From the NCBI GenBank assembly GCA_041891055.1, contig CP169074.1, forward strand, positions 1,120,001 through 1,184,000: a stretch of 64,000 nt of DNA. The letters are read 5' to 3'. The translations under genes were made by a program, and so were the position numbers. A model generated the notes under the pieces. It was not told where the DNA came from. It worked only from the letters and a program-made list of their open reading frames with translations, and did not search any database. This DNA comes from Halorutilales archaeon Cl-col2-1. Lineage in GTDB: Archaea > Halobacteriota > Halobacteria > Halobacteriales > Afararchaeaceae. Below, one piece after another: positions 4,938-50,348 of the stretch (its first letter is position 1; each line of letters begins with the position of its first letter).

Positions 4938-4985
4938 ACGGCTAACTACCTTTCTGTTTCAGCTTCGTATTTTTCGTGTCTTCGT

Positions 4986-5000
4986 ACCCAACTGGTTTGG
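4986..5000 (+). promoter_or_regulatory. Bat upstream activator sequence (UAS), followed by TATA-like ATATATAT at 5011-5018
   Basis: ACCCAACTGGTTTGG has one mismatch to the recalled Halobacterium UAS consensus ACCcnactagTTnGG; ends 38 nt before ATG 5038; bat is in the same cluster. Confidence 0.75.
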
Positions 5001-5037
5001 CTGTGTCTTGATATATATCTGTGACGTATATAAGCCG

Positions 5038-5103
5038 ATGCCAGCACCAGGTTCGAGACAGAGTTCTGAGCCGAGAAGGGATTCAAGGGGGGACACGAGG
5101 TAA
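5038..5103 (+). pseudogene. 21-aa mini-ORF MPAPGSRQSSEPRRDSRGDTR, probable 5' remnant of a bacterio-opsin gene
   Basis: ATG lies where a leaderless start is expected after UAS+TATA; first 6 aa match the recalled Haloarcula cruxrhodopsin N-terminus MPAPGS; TAATG overlap with the transducer start. Confidence 0.5.
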
Positions 5104-6728
5104 TGCGAGGGTCTGAGTCTGTTCTTCCGAGTAGGCTACGGGAGAGCTACACCGCGAAGCTAACCGCGGTTCTCTTCACAGCCGTAGTGACCACGGTGGT
5201 CTTCGGTGTAGTCCTCCTCAGACAGGTCGAAGAGGGAGTCTCAGACACTACTTCGGGTGTCGTGGGTCTGATACTCCTAAACGTCGTCAACCTGGGTCTC
5301 ATAGGATCGACAATAGGGAGTAACACGGCTATATCACTCGAAGTTCTCCAGAGGAAGTCGTCGAGAATGGGTCGGGGAGACCTCGACGTCGACCTCGAAA
5401 CCGACAGACAGGACGAGATGGGAGACCTGTATGACTCGTTCTCCAAGATGAGGGACTCGCTGAGACAGAAGATAGACGAGGCGGAGCGCGAAAGGGAGAG
5501 GGCAGAGAAACAGAAGAGGATAGCCGAGGAGAGACAGGAGGAAGCCGAGGAACTCAACAGACGTCTCGCGGAACAGGCTGAGAGGTACAAGGACGTCATG
5601 AGGGACGCCGCAGACGGAGACCTCACGAGACGTGTCGACGCCGAGACACGTAACGACGCGATGAGGGAGATAGGAGAGGCTTTCAACAGCATGATGGACG
5701 GCTTAGAGGAAACTGTGGCTAAAGTAAAGGGATTCTCGGACGAGGTCTCCGACTCGACACGTGAGGTCGAGAGAGGCGCGAACGAGATACGTGAGTCGAG
5801 CGAGCAGATAAACAGTTACATACGTGAGATATCACGCGACACCGACGAACAGGACGACAAGCTACAGAACATATCGACCGAGATGAGCGACCTGTCGGCG
5901 ACTATAGAGGAGGTCGCGTCGTCGGCTGACGAGCTAGCGGGGACTTCACAGAGGATGGCTGATCTGGGTCAGGAGGGAAGAGACGCAGCCGAGATAGCCA
6001 TAGACGAGATCAACCAGGTCGAGTCTGAGACCGAGAAGACGGTCGAGGAGATAGTCAAGCTCGACGAACAGATGAAGGAGATAGAGGAGATAGTCGATGT
6101 CATCACCGACATAGCTGAGGAGACCAATCTACTCGCTCTCAACGCGAGCATAGAGGCGGCGAGGGCGGGAGAGGAAGGAGACGGCTTCGCTGTCGTCGCC
6201 GATCAGATAAAGGAGCTCGCCGAGGAGACAAAGAAGTCGGCGTCCGAGATAGAAGAGGTCATATCCGACGTACAGGATCAGACCGAGAGCACAGTGGACG
6301 ACATACGTGAGACGAGCGACAGGATAACCAAGGGTGTCGAGACAGTCGAGGACACCGTCGAATCCCTCGAAGAGATAGTCGGATACGTCGAGGAGACCAA
6401 CTCGGGAGTCCAGGAGATCCGTGACGTGACCGAGAGCCAGGCTAACTCAACACAGGAGGTCGTGTCGGTCACCGACGAGGTCTCCGAGCTCAGCAGAAAC
6501 ACAGCCGACGAGGCGAAGAAAGTCACCGACGAAGCCGAGAGCCAGACCGAGATAGTCAAGTCAGTCTCGGAGAGAGCCGAGAGACTCGCCGATGGAGCCG
6601 ACGACCTCAACGAACTCCTTGAGGGCTTCGATGTCAAATCTAAGTCTGACGTCAACGGCAATGTAACGGCGCGAGGAGTAGAGAGGTCGGATTTAGCACA
6701 CGCAGACGGAAAGGGAGGTGAGAGGTAG
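5103..6728 (+). CDS. Sensory rhodopsin transducer, HtrII-like (2 TM, 2 HAMP, MCP signalling domain)
   Basis: NLGLI...SRMGRGDLDVDLETDRQDEMGDLY closely resembles N. pharaonis HtrII; MCP hairpin ETNLLALNASIEAARAGEEGDGFAVVA; abuts the opsin gene. Confidence 0.92.
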   Translation: MRGSESVLPSRLRESYTAKLTAVLFTAVVTTVVFGVVLLRQVEEGVSDTTSGVVGLILLNVVNLGLIGSTIGSNTAISLEVLQRKSSRMGRGDLDVDLETDRQDEMGDLYDSFSKMRDSLRQKIDEAERERERAEKQKRIAEERQEEAEELNRRLAEQAERYKDVMRDAADGDLTRRVDAETRNDAMREIGEAFNSMMDGLEETVAKVKGFSDEVSDSTREVERGANEIRESSEQINSYIREISRDTDEQDDKLQNISTEMSDLSATIEEVASSADELAGTSQRMADLGQEGRDAAEIAIDEINQVESETEKTVEEIVKLDEQMKEIEEIVDVITDIAEETNLLALNASIEAARAGEEGDGFAVVADQIKELAEETKKSASEIEEVISDVQDQTESTVDDIRETSDRITKGVETVEDTVESLEEIVGYVEETNSGVQEIRDVTESQANSTQEVVSVTDEVSELSRNTADEAKKVTDEAESQTEIVKSVSERAERLADGADDLNELLEGFDVKSKSDVNGNVTARGVERSDLAHADGKGGER

Positions 6729-7433
6729 ATGGTTGAGATAACCGACACGACGACATGGTTCTGGATAGGCGCGGTAGGTATGTTCGCGGGAATGGTAGTC
6801 TTCGTAGCCTCAGGTGTCAGGAGCGACGACGAGACGAGGAAGTACTACGGTGTCATAGCCGCGGTCGCCTTCATAGCGTCCGCAGCCTACGCTGCGATGG
6901 CTCTCGGTATAGGCTCGCTCGAGTCCGACGGAGTGACCGTATACCTCCCGAGGTACGCAGACTGGCTGATAACGACACCCCTACTCATACTTGACCTGGG
7001 TCTCCTCGCGGGTGTCAATAAGAAGACGTACGCGGCTCTGATAGGCTCAGACGTCGCGATGATAGGATCGGGAGTCGCGGCGTCGCTCTCGACCTCCTGG
7101 GTCAAGTACGTCTACTTCGGCGTGGGATCGGTGGCTTACGTGGTTCTCCTCTACCTACTCATGAGAACCCTCTCGGACGCCGCGAGGGGCAGAGGAGTCG
7201 CGTCTCTGTTCCAGAAGCTAAGGAACCTGACAGTAGTCCTGTGGTCGGTCTATCCCGTAGTCTGGCTGGTCGGACCCTACGGAACGGGTCTCTTAGAGCC
7301 CGCTACCGAGACTATCATAATACTCTATCTCGACCTCATAACCAAGGTCGGGTTCGGTTTCATACTCGTCAACAGCCACGACGTCCTGTCGTCGATACGT
7401 ACCCCCTCGACGGCGGACGTAGCCGAGACGTGA
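6729..7433 (+). CDS. Microbial rhodopsin, SRII-like scaffold with DTD motif
   Basis: 7 TM; PRYADWLITTPLLILD (helix C), LWSVYPVVW (F), YLDLITKVGFG with retinal Lys206 (G); ATG directly follows the htr TAG. Confidence 0.95.
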   Translation: MVEITDTTTWFWIGAVGMFAGMVVFVASGVRSDDETRKYYGVIAAVAFIASAAYAAMALGIGSLESDGVTVYLPRYADWLITTPLLILDLGLLAGVNKKTYAALIGSDVAMIGSGVAASLSTSWVKYVYFGVGSVAYVVLLYLLMRTLSDAARGRGVASLFQKLRNLTVVLWSVYPVVWLVGPYGTGLLEPATETIIILYLDLITKVGFGFILVNSHDVLSSIRTPSTADVAET

Positions 7434-7439
7434 TCAGTC

Positions 7440-7646
7440 TCAGTTCCCTTCTACCTCAAAGATAACACCGAAGACGTGGTCGTTAGGACACGAGAGACGT
7501 CTTAGCTTTCCTCCTTGGCTTCGCCGTCCCCGGCTTTCCTCGTTCTCGTAGTCAGTCTCGAAGACCCCTTTTACCGTCGCGTCCCACGGGAGACCCATCT
7601 TGACATTGACACCGCATATGGGACACCGTATATCCCGAACAGGCAT
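7440..7646 (-). CDS. brz: Brz-like bacteriorhodopsin-regulating small zinc-finger protein
   Basis: CPICG-VKMGLP-ATVK...CPNDHVF matches the recalled H. salinarum Brz pattern (CPRCG..VKMGLP..ATVK..CRNDHEF); divergent from brp as in H. salinarum. Confidence 0.8.
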   Translation of the reverse strand: MPVRDIRCPICGVNVKMGLPWDATVKGVFETDYENEESRGRRSQGGKLRRLSCPNDHVFGVIFEVEGN

Positions 7647-7695
7647 CGTTGGGAGACGATGGTAGACAAGTGCTTAAGCCTACTCCTTGTTGTAC

Positions 7696-7710
7696 ACCCC
7701 AACAGTTAGG
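7696..7710 (+). promoter_or_regulatory. Second Bat UAS upstream of brp, followed by TATA-like TTTTAATA at 7716-7723
   Basis: ACCCCAACAGTTAGG keeps all ACC..TTnGG core positions; ends 37 nt before brp ATG 7747. Confidence 0.65.
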
Positions 7711-7746
7711 CCTCGTTTTAATAGTGTGACGGAGCCTATTCTAAGT

Positions 7747-8766
7747 ATGACGAGTTTTGGTCTCCGAAGACTACGGAGACGCGGACGGTCGAGTTCGTAC
7801 CTCACGAGGTCGAGGCTCGGTTTACTTTCACTGACGGTCGGCTTCGGTATCTTGGGTCTCGCGGGCATAGGAGTCTCACTGCGTCTCCAGTCTGCCGTCT
7901 ACCTGATAGGGATGGTGGCGATGAACCTCCCCCAGGGTGGCTACGAGAACTTACATAACCTCGACGGACGTGGCACGAGGTTCCAGATGGGATACATAGC
8001 CTCCTACGTACTCACCATAGCGGCTTTCACAGCCGTCTTCTTCTTCGACCCCGTCGTGGGACTGGGTCTCGGCGTCTTTGTCGCGATGGCTAAGGGAGGC
8101 TTCGGAGACCTCAGCGTCTTGGAGACCATCTACGGCGACCACATAAAGACAGATATCCAGAGATGGCTAGCTGCGGCGGTCAGAGGTGGTGTCGTGATGG
8201 TAGTTCCGATGGCTTTCCATCCCGAAGCTTTCTACGGTCTGAGCTCCGTGATGGTGAATATATTCGATCCCGGTGGTCTCACGAGACTCGGATACGGGAG
8301 CTTCGAGACCGCGAGCCGTGTCCTCGGGGCTGTTCTCTGTGCCATAACTGGGGTTTACCTGGTTCTGGGGTACATACGGTCAGACGCGACGGGGTCGTTC
8401 AGGTCTGACGCGGGCGAAATCTTCCTCCTAGTCGCCTACTTCGCAGTGACTCCCGTCGTGGTAGCCGTTGGTCTCTACTTCCCCCTGTGGTACTCGGCGA
8501 GACAGGTCGCCCGTATGAGGGCGGTCGACGACTCCGAGACGGAACGGGACGGCTTTGACGCCCCGGCTGTAGTAGTCTCACTCGTCGTGGCGAGCGTCGT
8601 GTTAGGTGGTCTCGTGTGGTCAGTCTCGCCACAGCCCCTCGGTGGTGCGAGAATCCTACCAGGACTCGTGGCTTTCTGGACGGTATTCGTGAGCATAATA
8701 GCACTTCCCCACGTAGTCATTGGAGGGCTTATAGACAGGTCGAGGGGGATATGGTACGTCCCATGA
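7747..8766 (+). CDS. brp: Brp/Blh family beta-carotene 15,15'-dioxygenase (Brp-type)
   Basis: GMVAMNLP, QRWLAAAVRGG, GLYFPLWYSARQVAR, IIALPHVV..RGIWYVP; start moved to ATG 7747, downstream of TATA. Confidence 0.9.
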   Translation: MTSFGLRRLRRRGRSSSYLTRSRLGLLSLTVGFGILGLAGIGVSLRLQSAVYLIGMVAMNLPQGGYENLHNLDGRGTRFQMGYIASYVLTIAAFTAVFFFDPVVGLGLGVFVAMAKGGFGDLSVLETIYGDHIKTDIQRWLAAAVRGGVVMVVPMAFHPEAFYGLSSVMVNIFDPGGLTRLGYGSFETASRVLGAVLCAITGVYLVLGYIRSDATGSFRSDAGEIFLLVAYFAVTPVVVAVGLYFPLWYSARQVARMRAVDDSETERDGFDAPAVVVSLVVASVVLGGLVWSVSPQPLGGARILPGLVAFWTVFVSIIALPHVVIGGLIDRSRGIWYVP

Positions 8767-8841
8767 CCAAAAACGACAGTCACCCGGAGAGAAATCGAGA
8801 AATAACCACGAAAGAAACAAGACTAGACAGGTCAAGATAAG

Positions 8842-10872
8842 ATGACGGATCAAGGAAGGATACTCTACGCAGGCGGTGAGATAGACGGTATCAGCCCTGA
8901 GTCGGTAGACGAGAGTCTCGACCGGCTCGAGGTCGTACACGAATCCGACTTCGTCACGGCTCTCGAATCCGCCAGGGAAACCGACGTCAGAGGCGTGATC
9001 GCCTCCCACCGGACTAACGGCTTCAGAGGCGTCGACCTACTTGAGTCGATGCGTCAGGAGGGGCTGGGAATCCCCGTAGCCGTGGTAGTTCGGGAGGAGG
9101 AGGCAGGCGAAGTGGCACGCAGAGCAGTCGAAGCCGACGCCACGGCTTTGGTGCCAGCAGGCGATGACGACGCTCTCGAAGCCTTAGCTGACGCGATCGA
9201 GAGAAACATGAGCACCGAGGATGGACGTAGACGTGAAGAAGACAGACGTATGCCAATATCCGACCTGCCCTTCGAGGACGAGAGACGTCTCAAGGAACGT
9301 GTCCTTGACGAGGCACCCATAGGAATCACGGTCTCGAACGCCGACGACCCCGATAACCCCATAATCTACCTCAACAAGTCGTTCGAGAGTCTGACTGGGT
9401 ACTCGGCCGAGGAGGTAGTGGGTGCGAACCACAGGTTTCTACAGGGAAGCGAGACCGACACCGAGAAGGTCGAGGAGCTCGGAAGAGGTGTCTCAGAGGG
9501 GCGTGACACACGGGTTACACTGCGTAACTACACCCGGGACGGTGACCTCTTCTGGAACCAGGTAGACGTAAGCCCTATATCCGACTCAGAGAACGAGACG
9601 TCTTATTACGTGGGGTTCCAGATGGACGTCACCGAGCGCGAGAGATTCAGACACGAGCTTGAGGAGGAGCGCGAGGCTTTCGACCGTCTCATAGACCGGA
9701 TGAACAGTCTCATCAACGACATCACGAGATGTCTTGTACGTGCCGAGAGCCGCGAGGAGGTCGAGGAGTCAGTCGTCGAAAAGCTCGGCGAGGAGTACGA
9801 TCAGGCTTGGATCGGAAGGTACAGCCCCACGGACGGCGAGGTGACTGTAGACGAGACCTCGATACGAGACAGAGAGGAACGACAGAATAGAATCAGCGTC
9901 GGAGAGGAAGACTCCGAGCGAGTAGTGAGTGACGTAGTCGAGAGACACGAGACAAGTGTCGTCGAGGGCGACGAAGCCGAGTCCCTCCGTCGTCGTATAC
10001 TGGACGGGTCAGTCGACGACTCCAAGTCGGGGTCTTCTTTCTGTGTCACCGTCCCCGTGACCTACCAGTCGACGACATACGGTGTGATTGGTGTCTGGGG
10101 AGACGGTGAGAGACTCGACACCAGGGAGCCTGGGCTTCTCGCGTCGGTCGCCAGAAGCGTTGGGGCATCGATCAACGACGTCTTGACTAAGAGGACTATG
10201 TCGACCGACTCGGTGGTGCGCCTGGGTATTCGGATAGAGAACGACGGATCGCCTCTCGTGGAAGTCGCCGACGAGGTTGGAGGGAGTCTCGAATACGAGG
10301 GTGCCGTGACACAGGGCGGCGGTATAGCTATACTCGTGAGTACGTCAGCCGACCCAGGGGAAGCCGTCGAAGCTGCGGGACAGAACAGCGGCGTTGTAGA
10401 CGCCGAGGTACTCGTCTCAGACGAAGAAGGAACTGTTGTACAGATACGTGTCGATCGAATCGGTCTCGTGAGTGAGGTCTCCGAGCACGGTGGCCGTCTG
10501 AGGTCGATGGAGGTGACACCCAACGGCGTCGAGGCGGAGCTGGACGTCGGAAACGAGAGAGAAGCACGCCGTCTCCTCGACCGTCTGAAACAGACCTACT
10601 CAGGGTCGGAAGCTGACGTCAGTCTCGCAACCTACAGAACAGTAGAGGAAGCATCACAGACGACACAAGGCTTCAGAAACGAGGTAAGAGACCGTCTGAC
10701 ACAGCGTCAGATGACAGCCCTCCAGAAGGCGTATACGGGAGGCTTCTTCGACTGGCCCAGGCGTGTCGAGGGCGAGAGGCTCGCCGAGTCGATGGACATA
10801 GTTCCGTCGACCTACCACCAGCATCTACGTACCGCGGAGAGAAAGCTCATAGAGGCTTTCCTAAACGGCTGA
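8842..10872 (+). CDS. bat: Bacterio-opsin activator (receiver-like, PAS/LOV, GAF, HTH_10)
   Basis: NHRFLQG...LRNYTRDGDLFWNQV LOV-like PAS; C-terminal LTQRQ..AYTGGFFDWPR..STYHQHLRTAERK HTH; follows brp. Confidence 0.92.
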   Translation: MTDQGRILYAGGEIDGISPESVDESLDRLEVVHESDFVTALESARETDVRGVIASHRTNGFRGVDLLESMRQEGLGIPVAVVVREEEAGEVARRAVEADATALVPAGDDDALEALADAIERNMSTEDGRRREEDRRMPISDLPFEDERRLKERVLDEAPIGITVSNADDPDNPIIYLNKSFESLTGYSAEEVVGANHRFLQGSETDTEKVEELGRGVSEGRDTRVTLRNYTRDGDLFWNQVDVSPISDSENETSYYVGFQMDVTERERFRHELEEEREAFDRLIDRMNSLINDITRCLVRAESREEVEESVVEKLGEEYDQAWIGRYSPTDGEVTVDETSIRDREERQNRISVGEEDSERVVSDVVERHETSVVEGDEAESLRRRILDGSVDDSKSGSSFCVTVPVTYQSTTYGVIGVWGDGERLDTREPGLLASVARSVGASINDVLTKRTMSTDSVVRLGIRIENDGSPLVEVADEVGGSLEYEGAVTQGGGIAILVSTSADPGEAVEAAGQNSGVVDAEVLVSDEEGTVVQIRVDRIGLVSEVSEHGGRLRSMEVTPNGVEAELDVGNEREARRLLDRLKQTYSGSEADVSLATYRTVEEASQTTQGFRNEVRDRLTQRQMTALQKAYTGGFFDWPRRVEGERLAESMDIVPSTYHQHLRTAERKLIEAFLNG

Positions 10873-10915: not shown

Positions 10916-11734
10916 ATGTCTTACCTCGCCTATGTGACTGTGTCAGTAGTGGGGGTCTCAGGTGTGGTGGCTATCGTAGCGTGGCACAGACGGGGACTGA
11001 GAAGGCTGTCCGACGTCCTCGGTGTAGGTGTCCTGAGCCTGATAGCCGTGGGTTACACATTCGGATGGGACGCGTATCTCATATACAGGGATGTATGGTG
11101 GTACGGCGACGGTGTCGTAAGCTTCCGCATCGTAGGAGTCCCCGCAGGGGAGATACTCTTCTTCGTAGCCCAGACTTCGCTGACATCGTTCTGGCTGTAC
11201 AGTCTCAAGCCCGACTTCGGCAGGAGTCTCGGAGAGACCGAGCCCGATAGACACCGCGACGGATTCGGGCTCGACCCGGCTCTCGTTACTGTCGTTCTAG
11301 GAGGCGTATCAGGTCTCCTTCTCGTCTTCGTGGCTCCCCAGAGGTACTACTACCTGGGTCAGATACTCGTCTGGGGAGCCCCGATGGTGTTCTTCCTCTG
11401 GTACGTCGGCAGTGAGATACTCCGTGAAAACATACGTCTCGTCGTAGCCGGAGTGGCTGTTCCGACCGTATACCTCTGGGGAGTCGACAGAGCCGCTATA
11501 CAGAGGGGTCTCTGGACCATCTCGGAGGAACACTCGACCGGAATAGGACTTCTAGGTCTACCCTTGGAGGAGATGGTGTTCTTCGGAGTGACTAACAGCC
11601 TCGTCGTCTTCGGCTTAGTCCTATATCTCTGGGTGGCTGAGCGCGCTAGAGACGGAGAAAAAGAAGAGGACTATCTGACTGGCATGAGACGCCTGATACT
11701 CGGGGTCAGAGACGGGGACGGGAACACGAGATAG
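10916..11734 (+). CDS. crtY: Lycopene beta-cyclase (CrtYcd fusion type)
   Basis: Two cyclase repeats WD..I...W.Y..GVP..E.LFF and VDR.AI..G.W.I..GLPLEEMVFF; in retinal cluster. Confidence 0.88.
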   Translation: MSYLAYVTVSVVGVSGVVAIVAWHRRGLRRLSDVLGVGVLSLIAVGYTFGWDAYLIYRDVWWYGDGVVSFRIVGVPAGEILFFVAQTSLTSFWLYSLKPDFGRSLGETEPDRHRDGFGLDPALVTVVLGGVSGLLLVFVAPQRYYYLGQILVWGAPMVFFLWYVGSEILRENIRLVVAGVAVPTVYLWGVDRAAIQRGLWTISEEHSTGIGLLGLPLEEMVFFGVTNSLVVFGLVLYLWVAERARDGEKEEDYLTGMRRLILGVRDGDGNTR

Positions 11735-36762: not shown

Positions 36763-38664
36763 TTATAATCCCAAATACTCTGAGATAATCCGAACAACCG
36801 GCATAGCGGGTTCGTAGTTTATCATTAAGTCGGAGTAGCTCCACCAGAAGAGAACCAGAAAGACTGTCGTGAGACCGTAGACGAAGCCTATCAGTGCGTT
36901 TCCTATCCGTGGGTAGTCCCTGTTAGAGAAGGTGGAGACGAGGCTCCAGACTCCGAGAGTCGACGCCCCGAGTAAGTTTAGGATCGCGTGTAGCTGTACA
37001 GCCTCGGAGAGTGCCGGACGTACGTATCCCACGAGAACGCCGAAGAGTAGCTGACCGCCTATCAGGACGGTCACGGCATACGTCCACGTGAAGGTACTCG
37101 AAGCCATACTTCGGCTCTCTTCTACCGCGCGCGAGACTGAGGGTATGCGGAAGACGCCGTATATCAGAAGCGGTACTACCGGAACCACGTATCTCATGGT
37201 TATCTGTGCATGGACAGGGAGACGTGACATGTACATCAGCGTGAAGAGAGACGAGTACACGAGTACGAAGAGATCCGTCTGTCTCGCAGGGTTCGATAAG
37301 TCGAACCGTCCGAGTCCGGATTCACGGAGTTTGATTATGGCTATCACGGGTACTGAGATTAGTGATCCGAGGACCGGAGTCGATTCGAGTATAGTCAGAT
37401 CGATAACCCACTGGGACTGGAGCGAGTAGTCTATGCTCTCGATCCGACCGCTTCTTATGAAGGTGTGGTACAGACGCCGCGGCTGTTGTGTGACCGCATG
37501 AAACCCCTCGACGAAGAGGTTACTGAGTATGAGAAGCTTGTCGAAAGCCGAGAAGACGTAGCTCAGTGGCGGTAGCTGAGTTATAGCTCCGAATCCTGAT
37601 GACCCTCCCGAGGATGCCCCGGACGCCTCTCCTAACCCGGTTCCGGCTCTGCCGAGTAGACGTGGAGGCTTAAGCGGACTCCCGGAGATCAGGAAGTTCG
37701 TCAGGAAGAAGGGTATGAGAGAGACCAGAAACGCCGTACCTACCACAGTGAGGTGCTTGGGGCTGTTAGAGTCCGAACTCAGGAAATCGAAGGGTAGTAA
37801 GACCGAGAGAAGGAGTAAGGCTTCGGGGGCGTGAACCCACGCGAGTAGCCCGACCGAGACATACGACAGGGAGCGGTAACGGAGTTCGTCGTTAGGGAGT
37901 TTAGAGTCACTCCCTCTATAGAAGAAGTAGACAGTCAAGACCGAGAGAAGAGCCGTGATGACGTGTCTCTTGGGTATAGTCGCCCAGAAGGCTACCGGAC
38001 TCCCAAACAAGACACCCACTCCCGCATATACCCCGACTCTCTGGCTGTGTATCTCCGAGAGTAGTCGGTATACTGTGACCCCTACGAGACCCGCGCCAAC
38101 CATACTGCTTAGCTGGAGTCCGATGAACGGAATCCATTTCGGATTTATGGGGGTTGCGAGATGCACGTTGACCACGAAGAGAGCCACAGATACTATGCTA
38201 CTGAATCCTGTAACCGTCTTCTCTCTTTTCAGAATCCTTCCCAACTCCACCCCTGTCTGTAAGAGAACCAGACTCCACAGACCACTCAGAAAGATACGCA
38301 TGTCGGCTATCAGTTCCAGAGACTTGAGAATTAAGACAAAGGGAAGAGCGAAGAAGACGTGACCGTAGTTACGTCCGTAGAGCTTTCCATCGATACGGAA
38401 AGCACCGGGTGTGTTTCCCGACTCGGGACCGTACACGACATCAGTTACATGGAGATGTCCCTCCGATACGCCCACGACTGCGTTAGCAACGGTGTAGTTG
38501 TCAGTTATAAAGAACCCCACACGCCAGACCGACATGAAGAAAAAGACTGAAGACAGAAACAGGAAGATCCCAGTCGTGTCGCCGAATACATACAGTGATA
38601 ACTTCCTGAAACTCCTAGACATCTCCTCGTATCTGTCAACTAGTCTCGCCGGAGAAGAACTCAT
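36763..38664 (-). CDS. Polytopic membrane protein, possible GT-C fold glycosyltransferase
   Basis: 633 aa with many TM helices; acidic residue after TM1 (FFITDNY); late RYVVP motif; function inferred. Confidence 0.6.
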   Translation of the reverse strand: MSSSPARLVDRYEEMSRSFRKLSLYVFGDTTGIFLFLSSVFFFMSVWRVGFFITDNYTVANAVVGVSEGHLHVTDVVYGPESGNTPGAFRIDGKLYGRNYGHVFFALPFVLILKSLELIADMRIFLSGLWSLVLLQTGVELGRILKREKTVTGFSSIVSVALFVVNVHLATPINPKWIPFIGLQLSSMVGAGLVGVTVYRLLSEIHSQRVGVYAGVGVLFGSPVAFWATIPKRHVITALLSVLTVYFFYRGSDSKLPNDELRYRSLSYVSVGLLAWVHAPEALLLLSVLLPFDFLSSDSNSPKHLTVVGTAFLVSLIPFFLTNFLISGSPLKPPRLLGRAGTGLGEASGASSGGSSGFGAITQLPPLSYVFSAFDKLLILSNLFVEGFHAVTQQPRRLYHTFIRSGRIESIDYSLQSQWVIDLTILESTPVLGSLISVPVIAIIKLRESGLGRFDLSNPARQTDLFVLVYSSLFTLMYMSRLPVHAQITMRYVVPVVPLLIYGVFRIPSVSRAVEESRSMASSTFTWTYAVTVLIGGQLLFGVLVGYVRPALSEAVQLHAILNLLGASTLGVWSLVSTFSNRDYPRIGNALIGFVYGLTTVFLVLFWWSYSDLMINYEPAMPVVRIISEYLGL

Positions 38665-39149
38665 TCATTCACCTCTATACTGACGTTGTCACTGTACAAG
38701 CTTCTGGTACTGTTTCCATTACGCACGAGAACCGAGACAGTTCCGTTGTAGGAGTTATTCTGTATCTCGTCAGGCGAAAAACCATTCCTTCTCAGAGATA
38801 GTTTGAGAGAGTCGCGCTTTTCCTCCATGAAACGTAATGATGTTCCCGTGTAACCCAGCTCTGGTATCTCCATCTTATACACTAAGATCGGGCTACCGGT
38901 GATCTCCCGTATTTCCACTGTCGCAGACGGCGTGTGCAGGTAGTAAGTCTCCGAGCCATACATACCCGGTTCAAGCTTAAATACCTTGGACGAGAGACTA
39001 ACTTGCTTCACAGATACGGAGCCTTGGTTCCCCAGACTCACTCCATTATCTGCTTCTGCACTTATGAGTTCAAACGGCGAACCCGAAACTCCAATCCCAG
39101 CTAAGATAATAAGGACAGAAAACAGTCGGATAAAACGTGTCATGTCCAT
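38661..39149 (-). CDS. Hypothetical secreted/membrane-anchored protein
   Basis: N-terminal signal/TM; ATGA overlap with the downstream membrane-protein gene. Confidence 0.65.
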   Translation of the reverse strand: MDMTRFIRLFSVLIILAGIGVSGSPFELISAEADNGVSLGNQGSVSVKQVSLSSKVFKLEPGMYGSETYYLHTPSATVEIREITGSPILVYKMEIPELGYTGTSLRFMEEKRDSLKLSLRRNGFSPDEIQNNSYNGTVSVLVRNGNSTRSLYSDNVSIEVNE

Positions 39150-46630: not shown

Positions 46631-47412
46631 CGGTACTCGTTGAGCGAGTCACGCAGGTCACGCGCGGCTTTCCGAGCCTCGTCGTCGAATCTCTCCTCGT
46701 CTTCCTCACCCGCGTAGATGATCGAACGCGTCGAGTTGACGACTCCAACGCCTTCGGGGCTGAGACCGTGTTCTACTGCCGCTCTAACGCTCCCGCCCTG
46801 TGCTCCGACCCCCGGCACGAGGAAAGGAAGATCGTCGGCGTGTCGCCTGACTTCCTCCATAGTCTCGGGATAGGTCGCTCCGACGACGAGTCCAATATTC
46901 GAGTTTAGATCCCAGTCGGCGCATCTCTCTGCGACCTCGGCGTAGAGGGGCTTTCCGCCACAGTCGATGTCCTGGAAGTCACTGCTTCCGTCGTTTGTCG
47001 TCTTACACAGGACGAAGACGCCCTTCTCGGGACGTTCGATGAAGGGCTCTATGGAGTCGTGTCCCATGTACGGACTCACTGTTATAGCGTCGGCGAAGTC
47101 GAGTAGATCGGCGTACCTGCTGGAGGAGTTACCTATGTCACCTCTCTTGGCGTCAAGCACGACTTCTGCGTCAGTCTCCTCGTGGACGTACTCGGCTGTC
47201 TGTCTGAGCACGTCCCAGTCGTCGGTAGCCTCGTAGAAGGCGGAGTTGGGCTTGTAGGCGACAGCGACGTCGCTCGTGGCGTCGATTATACGTCTGTTGA
47301 ACTCTAAGACCGAGAGGTCGCCGGGTATCCTATCCCTCACGGGGTCGAGTCCGACACAGACGACGCTGTCTTTCTCCTCGATGCCGTCGGCGAGTCTGTC
47401 GAAGAAGTTCAC
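46627..47412 (-). CDS. pyrF: Orotidine-5'-phosphate decarboxylase
   Basis: [31 protein letters not shown]. Confidence 0.95.
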
Positions 47413-48677
47413 GCGAACTCCTCCAGAGGAACCTGCTTCTGGTCACCCGTCTCCATCTCCTTGACGGTCACAACGCCTTCGGAGAGGTCGCGTTCTCCGA
47501 CGATGACTGTCTTCTCTGCGTTTATAGAGTCGGCGTACTCAAGCTGTCCCGAGAAGCCGCGGTTCGAGAGATCGATCTCGACGACGTTGTCCTCGGCTCT
47601 TAGAGACTGTGCGACCTCGACCGCAGTCTGCCTGACGTCTCCTATCACGGCGACGTAGTAGTCAGTATGTATCCTCTCGTCGGGCCAGACTCCCGCTCTC
47701 TTCATGAGGAGTTCGAGTGTGGCGTCGCCCGGTGCGAATCCGACCGCCGGGGTCGGCTGTCCTCCGAAGGTCTCAACGAGGTCGTCGTAACGTCCACCGC
47801 CGAATATCGAACGCAGGTCGCCCTCTGTGTCGAAACACTCGAAGACGGCTCCCGTGTAGTAGTCGAGTCCCCTGACTATACGTGGGTCGAACTCGACGTC
47901 GACTCCGTAGTCCGCGAGACGGTCGTGTATAGCCCTGAGATTCTCGATCCCCTCACGTGTCTTCTGCCTCTCAGATATATCAAGAACCTCTTCGAGACTG
48001 TCGAAGCCACGTATCTGGGTTAGCGAGACTACGGTCGAGGTCTGTTCGTCGTCGAGTACCTCCCGCAGACGTGCCCTGAGTTCGTCGGCTTCGAGCTTCT
48101 CTGTCTTGTCGACAGTCCTGTAGACGTGCTGGGCGTCCTCCGAGGGGAGGTCGAATCCCTCGACTATCCCCTGGAGTATCTTCCTGTGGCTCATACGCAG
48201 GACGAAGTCGTCGTCGAGACCCAACGACCTCAGCATGTCGTCGGCGAGTGAGACTATCTCGGCGTCAGCCTCGGGAGTCTCGCCGCCGAATATGTCGAAG
48301 TTGGGCTGGTAGAACTCACGTAGACGTCCCGACTGTGGCTGTTCGTACCTCCAGAGCTTGGGCACCGAGTACCACTTGAGAGGCTTCGAGAACTCCTGCT
48401 GTTTCGCGACAAAGATACGGACGACACTCGGTGTTAGCTCGGGGGCCATAGTGACCTGTCGTCCGCCCTTGTCCTCGAAAGAGTAGGTCTCGTCGACTAT
48501 CTCCTCGCCGCTCTTTATCTCGTAGAGTTCGAGAGGTTCGAGCGACGGCGTCGCGATCTCACGGAATCCGTAGGACCGTGCCGTCTCCTCCACCGTGTCG
48601 AATACCTCACGACGTGCCGCCATCTCGTCGGGATAGAAGTCCCTGAACCCCTTGAGGCTCTCAAGGTCTCTGTCCAT
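47409..48677 (-). CDS. hisS: Histidine--tRNA ligase
   Basis: KGFRDF, RYEQPQSGRLREF, RGLDYYTG, GGGRYD. Confidence 0.97.
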   Translation of the reverse strand: MDRDLESLKGFRDFYPDEMAARREVFDTVEETARSYGFREIATPSLEPLELYEIKSGEEIVDETYSFEDKGGRQVTMAPELTPSVVRIFVAKQQEFSKPLKWYSVPKLWRYEQPQSGRLREFYQPNFDIFGGETPEADAEIVSLADDMLRSLGLDDDFVLRMSHRKILQGIVEGFDLPSEDAQHVYRTVDKTEKLEADELRARLREVLDDEQTSTVVSLTQIRGFDSLEEVLDISERQKTREGIENLRAIHDRLADYGVDVEFDPRIVRGLDYYTGAVFECFDTEGDLRSIFGGGRYDDLVETFGGQPTPAVGFAPGDATLELLMKRAGVWPDERIHTDYYVAVIGDVRQTAVEVAQSLRAEDNVVEIDLSNRGFSGQLEYADSINAEKTVIVGERDLSEGVVTVKEMETGDQKQVPLEEFA

Positions 48678-48722
48678 GTGACGAGTAGAGGAAGGAGAGG
48701 TTTAAATTAAACTAAAGAGTAC

Positions 48723-49055
48723 TTACCTTCTCTTTATGTTGTAGTCGTTGCCCGAGGGCTGAAGCTCACGCAGGAGATCCTTCATCTGGTCGTCGTCTAT
48801 GGTGTCCTGTATCCTTCCGCTCTTTGCGAGTGCGACTATCTGCTGTTCGACCGACTCCGCGAACTCCGGCTTCGACATACGGAGCGTGTTGAGCCTCTCG
48901 CGCGCCTCGGCTGTCAGGGTCTGTTTCAGGAGAGCCTTCTTCTGAGCCTCTGCCTTCTTACGTGCCTCCTCACGTTCCTGTGACTGTCCCTCTCCCTGCT
49001 GTTCCTTGAGATTCTTTAGCTTCTCCTCACGTAGGTCGTCGATGTCGTCAGTCAT
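48723..49055 (-). CDS. PDCD5/TFAR19-like DNA-binding protein
   Basis: [26 protein letters not shown]. Confidence 0.9.
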
Positions 49056-49126
49056 GTTAAAATGTAGTTCCTGAGAGCTTAAAACTCTTCAGACTGTCCT
49101 GGACGTGTTATATCCTGCCATAATTT

Positions 49127-49735
49127 TCAACCCCACTCGATATGAAAATTTACCTTGTATTGGGACGTATACAGCGTCGAAGCGGATCTGTTTAAGTAGT
49201 AGCTCTGGTCTCTACGAAAAGTATACTTCCCAGGAACTAATCCTGACGTATCCGATTTTATTTTGTATTTTCTCGACACTGTCTCGTTTGGATCTATTGA
49301 AGTCACTGTTTGAATAGTTGTAGCACTATTGTTCACGAGATCAACATTTGACGAGTGCACATATTTCGAGTTCCATAGCAGGAGTTTTCCATCAAGCCCT
49401 CTTTTCGAAACGAGATTATCGAACCATGCAGGAATTCCAAAGATACGCGGTGATTCTGGAGACGCATATACCACTCCAAATGGAGGAACCGGACCGGCTT
49501 TTACGTTCATCTCCCTGTCACCCCTGTTTTTCATGGAAAGTTTGATGACAGCAGGGTCATTTGGAGATATATTGGAATCAACCATATCCGCGTCTATTTT
49601 TAAGTTAGATTCGGGGTTTTGACTTACTTGGAGATCCTCGATAGTATAGTGACTTCCAGATGAGCCTATAAAAAACCAGATAGATATAATAACTGTTATT
49701 ATTACTATTAATAGATGAGTTCTGTTTTTTAACAC
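49127..49735 (-). CDS. Hypothetical membrane-anchored protein in AT-rich islet
   Basis: N-terminal TM; non-acidic, AT-rich codon usage. Confidence 0.6.
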   Translation of the reverse strand: MLKNRTHLLIVIITVIISIWFFIGSSGSHYTIEDLQVSQNPESNLKIDADMVDSNISPNDPAVIKLSMKNRGDREMNVKAGPVPPFGVVYASPESPRIFGIPAWFDNLVSKRGLDGKLLLWNSKYVHSSNVDLVNNSATTIQTVTSIDPNETVSRKYKIKSDTSGLVPGKYTFRRDQSYYLNRSASTLYTSQYKVNFHIEWG

Positions 49736-50348
49736 AGTTTATGGAAGAGTTAGACTAACATTCAATCCGTTAAGGAGTTCTGTTCCAACTGAACCCACAT
49801 CCCAATGAGTCCTCGTAGTCCTATTACTCCCCCTATACCAACGCTTAGGTATTTCAGGAATTTTCTTTTTGTAGCCGGCTCATCTAAATTTAAAATATTA
49901 CCTGTTTTTATATTCGACATATTTCATACTTAAAACTGTAAGGAGTTAATTCTTTTTGTGGTTTACAGACAATTTTAGCACAATAAACAGTATTCAAGTA
50001 TCGCTAGATCTGTCTAAGAAATTTGTAGTTCAAATATATATTGTAATCATACTGAACGACAAAACGAATGTGAATACGAACCTTCTCTATGATCCAGGAT
50101 ACAGAGAATGGCACGGATATATATCCGATTTTCTTCGAAAAGACTGTATTCAAAGTTTGTTTATTTTTGTCCTTTCAGTATCAGTTTGTGTGATGAAAAA
50201 GGATGAATCAAAAACTATCCGTCACTACTGGTGAATATACACGTTCAGACTATAGTTCGGATTTATGAATGAACATCGGATATTTTACGACTGTGATCGG
50301 AATTATCTTCTCTAAAATACTGTCGTAACCGTGGGTCAGAGCTGTCTA

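What the first reader, a model, noticed from the sequence alone, without database searches (positions are those of the whole stretch)
6729..7433. Hybrid rhodopsin: pump-type DTD motif plus SRII signalling residues, with its own transducer
Seen by manual alignment to recalled BR/NpSRII. Pump-like: R75/D78/T82/D89 (BR R82/D85/T89/D96; SRII has Phe and SRI Tyr at the donor site), D108/M111 (BR D115/M118), E194 (BR E204). SRII-like: G133, Y200, T205 (NpSRII G130/Y199/T204), with Y175 (NpSRII Y174) also present. The BR E194 and T46 equivalents are absent (Y184, I43). Established: Haloquadratum middle rhodopsin is a BR/SRII intermediate but lacks a cognate transducer. Inference: a natural fast-cycling sensor or switchable pump/sensor, possibly an unrecognised clade.
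Basis: partly seen in the sequence, partly recalled or inferred. Interest (0 to 1): 0.8.

Follow-up and report, generated by a model that had tools for sequence, protein, structure and literature searches.

The report
Sensory rhodopsin keeping the pump's aspartate
This salt-loving archaeon's only rhodopsin looks like a light sensor wired to a chemotaxis-type transducer, yet it keeps the internal proton-donor aspartate otherwise seen in light-driven proton pumps, a combination not found elsewhere in the databases searched.

Summary
Window 6729-7433 (+) encodes a 234-aa rhodopsin. It has R75/D78/T82/D89 (the pump's DTD motif) together with Y175/Y200/T205 (SRII signalling residues).

Its start codon directly follows the stop codon of a 541-aa NpHtrII-like transducer gene (5103-6728). 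Genes for brz, blh, bat and crtY lie downstream.

It is the only rhodopsin in a 2.06-Mb, 99.5%-complete genome. That genome also carries CheA, CheW, CheF, archaellins and nine MCP-type genes.

The DTD + Tyr200 combination was found in 2 of 401 Halobacteriales genomes, both in this genus. No listed hit from the protein searches carries it except the 96%-identical orthologue.

Phylogeny puts it on the sensory side. An AU test rejects a clade with haloarchaeal BR (p 0.00024). A clade with Haloquadratum middle rhodopsin is borderline rejected (p 0.042); middle rhodopsin itself nests inside BR.

The best tree makes it sister to all SRI/SRII-type sensors. A position as sister to either SRII subclade is not rejected.

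Both genes are under purifying selection. A complex model supports binding through helices F/G, though a similar complex has been solved.

Most likely it is a transducer-coupled photosensor of an undescribed lineage. The role of Asp89 (fast cycling, residual pumping, or none) is untested.

The parts
4938..5102 (+). Intergenic region upstream of htr with AT-rich TATA-like boxes (about 5008-5035); putative promoter of the htr-opsin operon
   Evidence: Read directly. Function is inferred; the sigma-70 scan is not applicable to archaea.
5103..6728 (+). htr: 541-aa transducer with two TM helices and a very short periplasmic loop, two HAMP stretches and an MCP signalling domain; NpHtrII-like
   Evidence: Pfam MCPsignal 2.3e-45 and HAMP 2e-16. 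Residues 6-144 match NpHtrII 2f95_B at E 2.2e-31, with Asn63, Ser51 and Gly72 at the NpHtrII Asn74, Ser62 and Gly83 sites (numbering checked against PMC13269893). The best full-coverage relatives are short-loop HtrII types. dN/dS against G001 is 0.119.
6714..6721 (+). GGAGGTGA Shine-Dalgarno-like element inside the end of htr, 7 nt before the opsin ATG; the htr stop TAG is at 6726-6728
   Evidence: The junction is identical in the same-genus genome G001.
6729..7433 (+). Opsin: 234-aa rhodopsin with R75, D78, T82, D89, D202, K206 (DTD motif) and Y175, Y200, T205
   Evidence: AF2 model with mean pLDDT 93.7 and seven helices. Foldseek best matches are NpSRII (TM 0.91) and deltarhodopsin (TM 0.91). 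dN/dS is 0.149.
7440..7646 (-). brz-like small zinc-ribbon regulator, convergent with the opsin gene
   Evidence: Pfam Zn_ribbon_Brz 3.1e-14.
7687..8766 (+). blh/brp beta-carotene 15,15'-dioxygenase (retinal synthesis); the true start is probably the ATG at 7748
   Evidence: Pfam BCD 2.7e-59; sequence read.
8842..10872 (+). bat-like activator (PAS, GAF, BAT, HTH_10)
   Evidence: Pfam.
10916..11734 (+). Lycopene cyclase (crtY-type)
   Evidence: Pfam Lycopene_cyc 7.3e-8.

Best explanation
The gene pair htr-opsin encodes a transducer-coupled photosensory rhodopsin. It is most likely a phototaxis receptor of a previously undescribed lineage on the sensory side of the haloarchaeal rhodopsin tree.

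Proposed mechanism, inferred by homology to NpSRII-HtrII:
1. Retinal bound at K206 isomerises.
2. The change is registered by the T205-Y175 hydrogen bond.
3. It is passed through helices F and G to the transducer's TM2. The contacts are Y200 with Htr N63, and probably E190 with Htr Q41/S51.
4. The signal then runs through two HAMP domains and the MCP tip to CheA/CheW, CheY, CheF and the archaellum.

What is unusual is that the cytoplasmic donor site carries Asp89. All classical sensory rhodopsins have Tyr or Phe there. My lower-confidence guess is that Asp89 speeds Schiff-base reprotonation, so that the sensor cycles faster than SRI or SRII.

Shown here: the residues, the operon, the genomic context, the uniqueness, the purifying selection, the tree side and the in-silico interface. 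Inferred: signalling, the sign of the response, the colour, and any role of Asp89.
For: Operon and transducer:
- htr and opsin are translationally coupled, and the junction is conserved in G001.
- The Htr has almost no periplasmic loop, so it has no ligand-binding domain of its own (alignment A2).
- It keeps Asn63, Ser51 and Gly72 at the NpHtrII Asn74, Ser62 and Gly83 sites.

Opsin residues:
- The opsin keeps Y200, T205 and Y175. PMC13269893 and PMC8354847 (passages) describe these sites as the binding and signalling residues of NpSRII.

Precedent for a DTD protein signalling:
- The engineered DTD proteins BR A215T/P200T/V210Y and MR A201T/M211Y signal through HtrII (PMC3274258; PMC8354847). 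A donor Asp therefore does not preclude signalling.

Complex model:
- ipSAE 0.74, best of 3 controls 0.00.
- This mark was reached by 116 of 157 solved complexes and 2 of 215 mismatched pairs.
- The runs agree in at least 94% of contacts, and the partner's pLDDT is at least 74.
- The interface is opsin 159-181 and 188-212 against Htr 30-78.
- A similar complex (NpSRII-HtrII) has been solved, so the pass may partly be memory.

Phylogeny:
- AU rejects a clade with haloarchaeal BR (p 0.00024).
- The 61-row careful tree puts it with the SR clade at 96/92.

Genome context:
- The taxis machinery is present: 9 MCP genes, CheW x3, CheA, CheF x3 and archaellin x3.
- Retinal synthesis genes lie next door.

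Selection:
- dN/dS is 0.149 for the opsin and 0.119 for htr.
Against: - A defining feature of classical SRs, Tyr or Phe at the donor site (PMC10519204), is not met.
- The NpSRII T189 site is Glu here.
- It is the genome's only rhodopsin and sits among bop-regulon-type genes (brz, bat, blh, crtY). That setting would also suit an energy-harvesting pump.
- No photocycle, binding or behaviour was measured.
- Expression evidence was sought but not obtained (see Tried and rejected).
- The placement as sister to all SRs weakens when 10 signature columns are dropped (46/94 and 51/91) and in the 100-row tree (39/93 and 24/0).
Confidence: 0.72

Rival explanations
1. Bifunctional protein. Molecules bound to Htr signal. 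Free molecules use D78 and D89 as acceptor and donor and pump protons outward, giving this small-genome organism both phototaxis and some light energy from one gene.
For: - It has a DTD motif plus M111, L213 and S216 of BR type.
- It is the only rhodopsin in a 99.5%-complete genome.
- It lies beside brz/bat/blh/crtY, as bop genes often do (the bop comparison is recalled).
- PMC9117797 cites Bogomolni 1994 for transducer-free SRI transporting protons.
Against: - The BR T46 partner of the donor is Ile43, and BR E194 is Tyr184.
- Middle rhodopsin has DTD and a BR-like fast photocycle yet does not pump protons (PMC8354847), so the motif alone does not predict pumping.
- htr is the upstream gene of the translationally coupled pair, which argues against a large excess of free opsin (inference).
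Confidence: 0.2
2. An ordinary slow SRII-type sensor in which Asp89 is a recent, functionally silent Tyr-to-Asp replacement that stays protonated and inert.
For: - AU tests do not reject a position as sister to the NpSRII-type subclade (p 0.274) or to the DTY subclade holding P0002 (p 0.235).
- The D89 codon is GAC, one base away from the Tyr codon TAC (sequence printed).
- From recall only, not seen here: the NpSRII F86D mutant did not gain BR-like reprotonation. Only the title of Iwamoto 2003 was seen, in the reference list of PMC3274258.
Against: - Asp89 is kept in both species-level genomes, under dN/dS 0.149.
- The protein shares three further BR-type states and many states of neither type.
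- It is no more than 52% identical to any SRII.
- The best trees place it outside every SR subclade, even without the signature columns.
Confidence: 0.3
3. Primarily a proton pump (BR-like), or an MR-like cation transporter, whose neighbouring htr is a chemotaxis gene with no functional link.
For: - The DTD motif is present.
- Bop-type regulatory and retinal-synthesis genes are adjacent.
- It scores as high against deltarhodopsin as against NpSRII (183 bits each).
Against: - AU rejects a BR clade (p 0.00024) and, at borderline significance, an MR clade (p 0.042).
- The stop and start codons abut, and the junction is conserved.
- The Htr has no periplasmic sensing domain and matches NpHtrII in TM1, TM2 and HAMP1.
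- Y200 and T205 are present, whereas all 35 other DTD proteins have V, I or M at 200 and Ala at 205.
Confidence: 0.05

Closest known systems
Natronomonas pharaonis sensory rhodopsin II with HtrII (PDB 1H2S, 5JJE and others)
   Same: - htr-then-opsin operon.
- Short-loop transducer with the TM2 Asn, the Gly hinge and the HAMP1 sequence conserved.
- Y174, Y199 and T204 equivalents and G130 present.
- Best structural match, TM 0.89-0.91.
- Predicted helix F/G interface.
   Different: - Only 41% identical.
- Asp instead of Phe at the donor site.
- Met instead of Val at the BR M118 site.
- Glu instead of Thr at the T189 site, with Gln instead of Glu at the paired transducer site.
- Not nested in the NpSRII-type subclade in the best trees.
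Haloquadratum walsbyi middle rhodopsin (HwMR, PDB 9JWS/8XHW)
   Same: DTD motif combined with the SR-type Thr next to the Schiff-base Lys. Both were picked up by the same pattern, with 3 of 401 genomes hit.
   Different: - 40.6% identical.
- HwMR nests in the haloarchaeal BR clade (98/95) and is BR-type at 7 of 10 discriminating columns, against 3 for this protein.
- HwMR has Met at the Y199 site.
- None of the six neighbouring ORFs of at least 150 aa examined around HwMR is an MCP gene.
- Wild-type HwMR does not signal through HtrII (PMC8354847) and is reported as a Mg2+ transporter (PMC12078690).
- An AU test of a joint clade gives p 0.042.
Engineered signalling pumps: BR A215T/P200T/V210Y ('BR-T') and MR A201T/M211Y
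   Same: DTD proteins that carry the SRII Tyr and Thr and signal through HtrII (PMC3274258; PMC8354847). This window holds a natural protein with that residue combination.
   Different: - Those are laboratory mutants of BR-clade proteins paired with a foreign transducer. This one is natural, lies on the SR side of the tree and has its own transducer.
- The third engineered residue (the T189 site) is Glu here.
Haloarcula marismortui SRM-HtrM (SRIII)
   Same: A third kind of haloarchaeal sensory rhodopsin with its own adjacent transducer (PMC6450946).
   Different: [quoted passage not shown] The transducer here lies upstream and has a full MCPsignal domain.
- No labelled SRM sequence was available, so its place relative to this protein was not tested.
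Bacteriorhodopsin / deltarhodopsin proton pumps
   Same: R82, D85, T89, D96, D115, M118, E204, D212 and K216 equivalents are present. It is 43-44% identical.
   Different: - T46, S141, E194, V210 and A215 equivalents are replaced.
- A clade with BR is rejected.
- It has a transducer.

Membership tests
Haloarchaeal Htr-coupled sensory rhodopsins (SRI/SRII type) | Seven-helix Bac_rhodopsin with a Schiff-base Lys and an Asp counterion | tested here: met
   PF01036 at 8.7e-64; K206, D78 and D202; AF2 model with pLDDT 93.7.
Haloarchaeal Htr-coupled sensory rhodopsins (SRI/SRII type) | Adjacent gene for a two-TM HAMP + MCP transducer | tested here: met
   Conserved in G001.
Haloarchaeal Htr-coupled sensory rhodopsins (SRI/SRII type) | Tyr or Phe in place of the BR Asp96 donor ('typical for all classical SRs', PMC10519204) | tested here: not met
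   Asp89. All 76 DTF/DTY hits carry F or Y there.
Haloarchaeal Htr-coupled sensory rhodopsins (SRI/SRII type) | SRII binding and signalling residues Y174, T189, Y199, T204 | tested here: inconclusive
   Y175, Y200 and T205 are present. The T189 site is E190, and the paired transducer site is Gln41 instead of Glu.
Haloarchaeal Htr-coupled sensory rhodopsins (SRI/SRII type) | Falls inside the SR clade | tested here: inconclusive
   Sister to the 32-row SR clade at 96/92. Support is weaker. AU does not reject a position as sister to either SRII subclade.
Haloarchaeal Htr-coupled sensory rhodopsins (SRI/SRII type) | Binds its transducer and mediates phototaxis; slow photocycle | not testable with these tools
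   Only an in-silico complex is available (0.74 against control 0.00), and a similar complex has been solved.
Bacteriorhodopsin-type outward proton pumps | DTD helix-C motif | tested here: met
   D78, T82, D89.
Bacteriorhodopsin-type outward proton pumps | Donor partner Thr46 and the proton-release pair E194/E204 | tested here: not met
   I43 and Y184; only the E204 equivalent (E194) is present.
Bacteriorhodopsin-type outward proton pumps | Falls inside the haloarchaeal BR clade | tested here: not met
   AU p 0.00024, lnL difference 57.7.
Middle rhodopsin (HwMR) | DTD plus the SR-type Thr before the Lys | tested here: met
Middle rhodopsin (HwMR) | Forms a clade with HwMR | tested here: not met
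   HwMR is identified by PDB 9jws_A at 515 bits. It nests in BR. A joint clade costs 51.8 lnL, p-AU 0.042, which is borderline, and the group was tested after the tree had been seen.
Middle rhodopsin (HwMR) | Stands without a cognate transducer | tested here: not met
   This opsin has one. None of the six ORFs examined around HwMR is an MCP gene.
SRM/SRIII with HtrM | Downstream transducer with a single HAMP and no MCP domain | tested here: not met
   Here the transducer is upstream, with two HAMP stretches and an MCPsignal domain. The SRM features come from PMC6450946.
SRM/SRIII with HtrM | Forms a clade with HmSRM | not tested

The most novel reading that the evidence does not exclude
This is an extant transitional form between proton pump and photosensor. 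The lineage split off before SRI and SRII diverged, already had a transducer, and still keeps the ancestral donor Asp. In this reading the organism's single rhodopsin both signals (when Htr-bound) and pumps protons (when free), or at least cycles at pump speed.
Probability: 0.2. Interest if true: 0.85.

Novelty: new variant of a known kind. Interest (0 to 1): 0.62.

Why it matters
Sensory rhodopsins are thought to derive from proton pumps. Loss of the Asp96-type donor is treated as a hallmark of that transition, and as the reason for the sensors' slow photocycles (PMC10519204, PMC9117797).

Until now, a pump motif combined with transducer coupling was known only from laboratory mutants (BR-T and MR A201T/M211Y). 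A natural, selected, transducer-linked rhodopsin with the donor Asp gives a direct test case for three questions:
- Is a slow photocycle really required for Htr signalling?
- Does transducer binding gate proton transport in a protein with a full DTD motif?
- What did the pump-to-sensor intermediate look like?

It could also be a compact scaffold for engineering fast photosensors.

Tried and rejected
Searches for further relatives:
- Genome and metagenome scans with the protein found nothing above 45% identity (6 loci; 11 loci).
- The 50%-representative search gave at most 47% identity.
- The lineage therefore could not be enlarged beyond G000 and G001.

Labelling of subfamilies:
- NCBIfam has no model that names rhodopsin subfamilies (0 families for 16 proteins). 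Labels came from PDB matches instead. P0145 stayed unlabelled.

Apparent fusions:
- Long stop-to-stop frames of 649-904 aa upstream of some SRII genes looked like Htr-opsin fusions. They are Arg/Gly-rich wrong-frame readings of the GC-rich htr and were rejected.

Expression:
- No RNA holder was listed for window 5103-7433.

Promoter scan:
- The sigma-70 promoter and terminator scan is uninformative for an archaeon.

Tools and papers not available:
- PMC1637548 and PMC3057805 are not held. Their content is cited only through papers that describe them.

Rows dropped before the trees:
- One search kept 104 of 195 rows (under 62% identity to any row already kept).
- One search removed 29 distant DTD-type rows by hand and added 25 genome-derived rows plus HwMR, giving 100 rows. 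One of two rhodopsins of locus L025 was overwritten by a naming slip.
- One search used 61 rows picked by hand to cover every clade.

Groups:
- The BR and SR groups were defined by the residue at column 89, which was left out of the counts.

Full report
WHAT IS THERE

Window 6729-7433 (+) is an intact 234-aa ORF. It matches Pfam Bac_rhodopsin at E 8.7e-64.

The preceding ORF, 5103-6728 (+), encodes a 541-aa protein with two HAMP stretches and an MCP signalling domain. The two genes lie in the same frame and are separated only by the TAG stop. A GGAGGTGA element sits 7 nt before the opsin ATG. The 165-bp region upstream of htr holds AT-rich TATA-like boxes.

Downstream lie four genes of retinal synthesis and regulation:
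- a convergent brz-type zinc-ribbon gene (7440-7646, minus strand)
- a beta-carotene dioxygenase (7687-8766)
- a bat-type PAS/GAF/HTH_10 regulator (8842-10872)
- a lycopene cyclase (10916-11734)

THE RESIDUES

These are R75, D78, T82, D89, D108, M111, G133, Y175, Y184, E194, Y200, D202, T205 and K206, with I43 at the BR T46 site.

One search examined 121 rows (the query plus its 120 nearest 90%-clusters). The motif counts were DTY 44, DTD 37, DTF 32, QGY 6 and QAY 2. Of the 37 DTD rows, only the query and P0001 (96% identical) have Tyr at 200 and Thr at 205. The other 35 have V, I or M at 200 and Ala at 205.

D108 and E194 also occur in many DTY sensors, so they are not pump markers. Y175 is invariant in the alignment.

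I also made a count that does not rely on residues chosen beforehand. It used columns that separate the 35 BR-type hits from the 76 SR-type hits. Column 89, which defined the two groups, was left out.

| Thresholds | Columns | Query: BR-type / SR-type / neither |
|---|---|---|
| strict | 10 | 3 / 5 / 2 |
| intermediate | 16 | 3 / 7 / 6 |
| loose | 39 | 6 / 16 / 17 |

Controls under the loose thresholds (BR-type / SR-type): NpSRII 3/26, P0002 1/21, a BR (P0069) 34/1, HwMR 18/5.

The protein is therefore a true mosaic, but one that leans towards the sensors.

HOW UNUSUAL IT IS

- The word-indexed search of 5.8 billion clusters gave 623 hits at E <= 1e-20. After the 96% orthologue, the best hit is 52% identical.
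- The exhaustive search of 1.84 billion representatives gave at most 47% identity.
- Genome and metagenome scans gave at most 45%.
- Among 41 related genomes, only the same-genus genome G001 has an orthologue; the next best is 49%.
- A DNA pattern for DWxxTTPxxxxD followed by DxxTK hit 3 of 401 Halobacteriales genomes (117 genera). The hits were G000, G001 and G101.
- The G101 gene is Haloquadratum middle rhodopsin, matching PDB 9jws_A at 515 bits over residues 1-246.
- A second pattern, requiring the pump motif plus Tyr two residues before the helix-G Asp, hit 2 of 401 genomes: G000 and G001 only.
- These genomes are a sample of the order. The combination was not found in those searched.

PHYLOGENY

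- 100-row careful tree rooted on TSA-motif halorhodopsins. The query pair is sister to 57 SR-like rows with weak support (39/93 and 24/0). HwMR sits inside a 15-row haloarchaeal BR clade (98/95).
- 61-row careful tree. The pair is sister to a 32-row clade at 96/92 on both nodes. That clade holds NpSRII (P0060), a second DTY SRII-like subclade, Haloarcula sensors and an SRI-type protein. The SRI-type protein is L030, whose best PDB match is the rhodopsin-transducer chain 9wxr_A at 317 bits.
- After removal of 10 signature columns. The pair still lies outside every SR subclade, with support of 46/94 and 51/91.

AU tests of a single clade with each group:

| Group held together with the query pair | lnL difference | p-AU |
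|---|---|---|
| Haloarchaeal BR | 57.7 | 0.00024 (rejected) |
| HwMR + P0139 | 51.8 | 0.042 (borderline) |
| NpSRII-type subclade | 11.3 | 0.274 (not rejected) |
| DTY subclade | 5.1 | 0.235 (not rejected) |

The solid result is that the protein lies on the sensory side and is not middle rhodopsin. Whether it branches below all sensors or is a divergent sister of one SRII group remains open.

It follows that Asp89 may be ancestral or may be a reversion. Its codon GAC is one base from the Tyr codon TAC.

THE TRANSDUCER

Residues 6-144 align to NpHtrII (2f95_B) at E 2.2e-31. Using the residue numbers given in PMC13269893, three NpHtrII sites are conserved:
- Asn74, which hydrogen-bonds SRII Tyr199, corresponds to Asn63.
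- Ser62 corresponds to Ser51.
- The Gly83 hinge corresponds to Gly72, which is invariant in all 18 rows of alignment A2.

NpHtrII Glu43 pairs with SRII Thr189. Here it is Gln41, while the opsin has Glu190 at the Thr189 site. Both partners have changed, so a hydrogen bond could be preserved. This is an inference.

The periplasmic loop is even shorter than in NpHtrII, so the protein has no ligand-binding domain of its own. The best full-coverage relatives are short-loop HtrII-type transducers, one of them named 'sensory rhodopsin II transducer' by its source.

COMPLEX AND FOLD

The AF2 model has mean pLDDT 93.7, pTM 0.90 and seven helices. Foldseek ranks NpSRII first (5jjn_A: TM 0.91, rmsd 1.3, 40% identity) with deltarhodopsin beside it (TM 0.91, 44% identity).

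The complex test of the opsin with Htr 1-125 gave these results:
- ipSAE 0.74, against 0.00 for the best of 3 controls.
- This mark was reached by 116 of 157 solved complexes and 2 of 215 mismatched pairs.
- The runs agree in at least 94% of contacts, and the partner's pLDDT is at least 74.
- The interface joins opsin helices F and G (159-181, 188-212) to Htr 30-78. Y200 touches Htr 59 and 62.

A similar complex (NpSRII-HtrII) has been solved. The pass shows the likeness; it does not prove that this pair binds.

GENOME CONTEXT AND SELECTION

- G000 has 2,064,627 bases in 4 contigs and is 99.47% complete. It holds this one rhodopsin.
- It has 9 MCP-domain genes, 3 CheW-domain matches, a CheA dimerisation domain in a 695-aa frame, 3 CheF matches, 3 archaellin matches and 2 phytoene-synthase-family genes.
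- G001 keeps the order carB-htr-opsin-blh and the identical junction.
- dN/dS between the two genomes:

| Gene | dN/dS | Note |
|---|---|---|
| opsin | 0.149 | 22 synonymous, 10 non-synonymous differences |
| htr | 0.119 | |
| carB | 0.057 | |
| blh | 0.24 | |

None of the nine opsin replacements touches a signature site.

COMPARISON WITH WHAT IS KNOWN

All papers below were read as passages found by term search, not in full.
- PMC10519204 states that haloarchaeal SRs replace the Asp96 homologue by Tyr or Phe, with slow photocycles as a result. It says this aromatic signature is typical of all classical SRs.
- PMC9117797 infers DTY for the SR ancestor and DTD for the archaeal ancestor.
- HwMR has DTD plus the SR Thr. 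It does not pump protons despite a BR-like fast photocycle. It does not signal through HtrII unless A201T/M211Y are introduced (PMC8354847). It is now reported as a Mg2+ transporter (PMC12078690).
- In G101, none of the six ORFs of at least 150 aa examined around HwMR is an MCP gene. A second rhodopsin, crtY and blh are there.
- BR A215T/P200T/V210Y signals through HtrII (PMC3274258).
- SRM has a downstream transducer without an MCP domain (PMC6450946).
- My literature searches for a natural transducer-linked DTD rhodopsin listed none. This covers only the held library.

The supplementary alignments of these papers were not looked at.

VERDICT

The most likely reading is a transducer-coupled photosensor of an undescribed, genus-restricted lineage that carries the pump's donor Asp (confidence about 0.7).

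Whether Asp89 makes it fast-cycling or partly pumping, or does nothing, cannot be told from sequence. I rate it a new variant of a known kind, with interest about 0.6.

A guess from recalled colour-tuning work, not tested here: M111 together with G133 and T205 suggests a lambda-max between those of SRII and BR.

Noticed in passing
Proteins P0042, P0062, P0068, P0074, P0082, P0087, P0095, P0115; P0124; locus L026 (G028:C1:2325299-2325952): An SRII-like subclade has Gln instead of the Asp counterion and Gly/Ala instead of Thr on helix C (QGY/QAY motif). It keeps the helix-G Tyr and Lys. It accounts for 8 of the 120 nearest hits.
   Followed up: no
L027 (G028:C1:2087902-2088507), L032 (G037:C1:812883-813503), P0137: These rhodopsin homologues have Arg in place of the Schiff-base Lys (signature ending in R). 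They are probably opsins without a canonical retinal site, of the kind described in PMC4915679 (title and abstract seen only in the search listing).
   Followed up: no
L023:104-2222 (G001): In the same-genus genome, the bat gene is split into two overlapping ORFs. One of 397 aa holds the PAS domain; one of 328 aa holds BAT + HTH_10. This is a frameshift or an assembly error. In the window, bat is intact at 676 aa.
   Followed up: partly
L025 (G028:C1:2527944-2529644): Two rhodopsin genes lie about 0.5 kb apart on the same strand in one genome. One is a BR-type of 259 aa. The other is a halorhodopsin-like gene with a T-S-A motif but Thr before the Lys.
   Followed up: no
L024:6067-6831 and 8427-9167 (G101): HwMR lies 1.6 kb from a second rhodopsin gene (254 aa). 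It is next to crtY and blh, with an IS605 OrfB/TnpB-type gene nearby.
   Followed up: partly
window 36763-39149 (minus strand): ORFs of 633 aa and 162 aa have no Pfam family. They lie in the lowest-GC stretch of the first 40 kb (GC 0.51-0.53 against about 0.57).
   Followed up: no
window 48001-50000: This is the lowest GC of the window (0.478). It lies just downstream of hisS (47409-48677) and includes a 202-aa ORF without a Pfam match (49127-49735).
   Followed up: no
L033, L028, L002: Upstream of several SRII genes, the opsin frame stays open for 400-670 codons through the GC-rich htr gene. This gives Arg/Gly-rich pseudo-ORFs that mimic Htr-opsin fusions in stop-to-stop ORF lists.
   Followed up: yes
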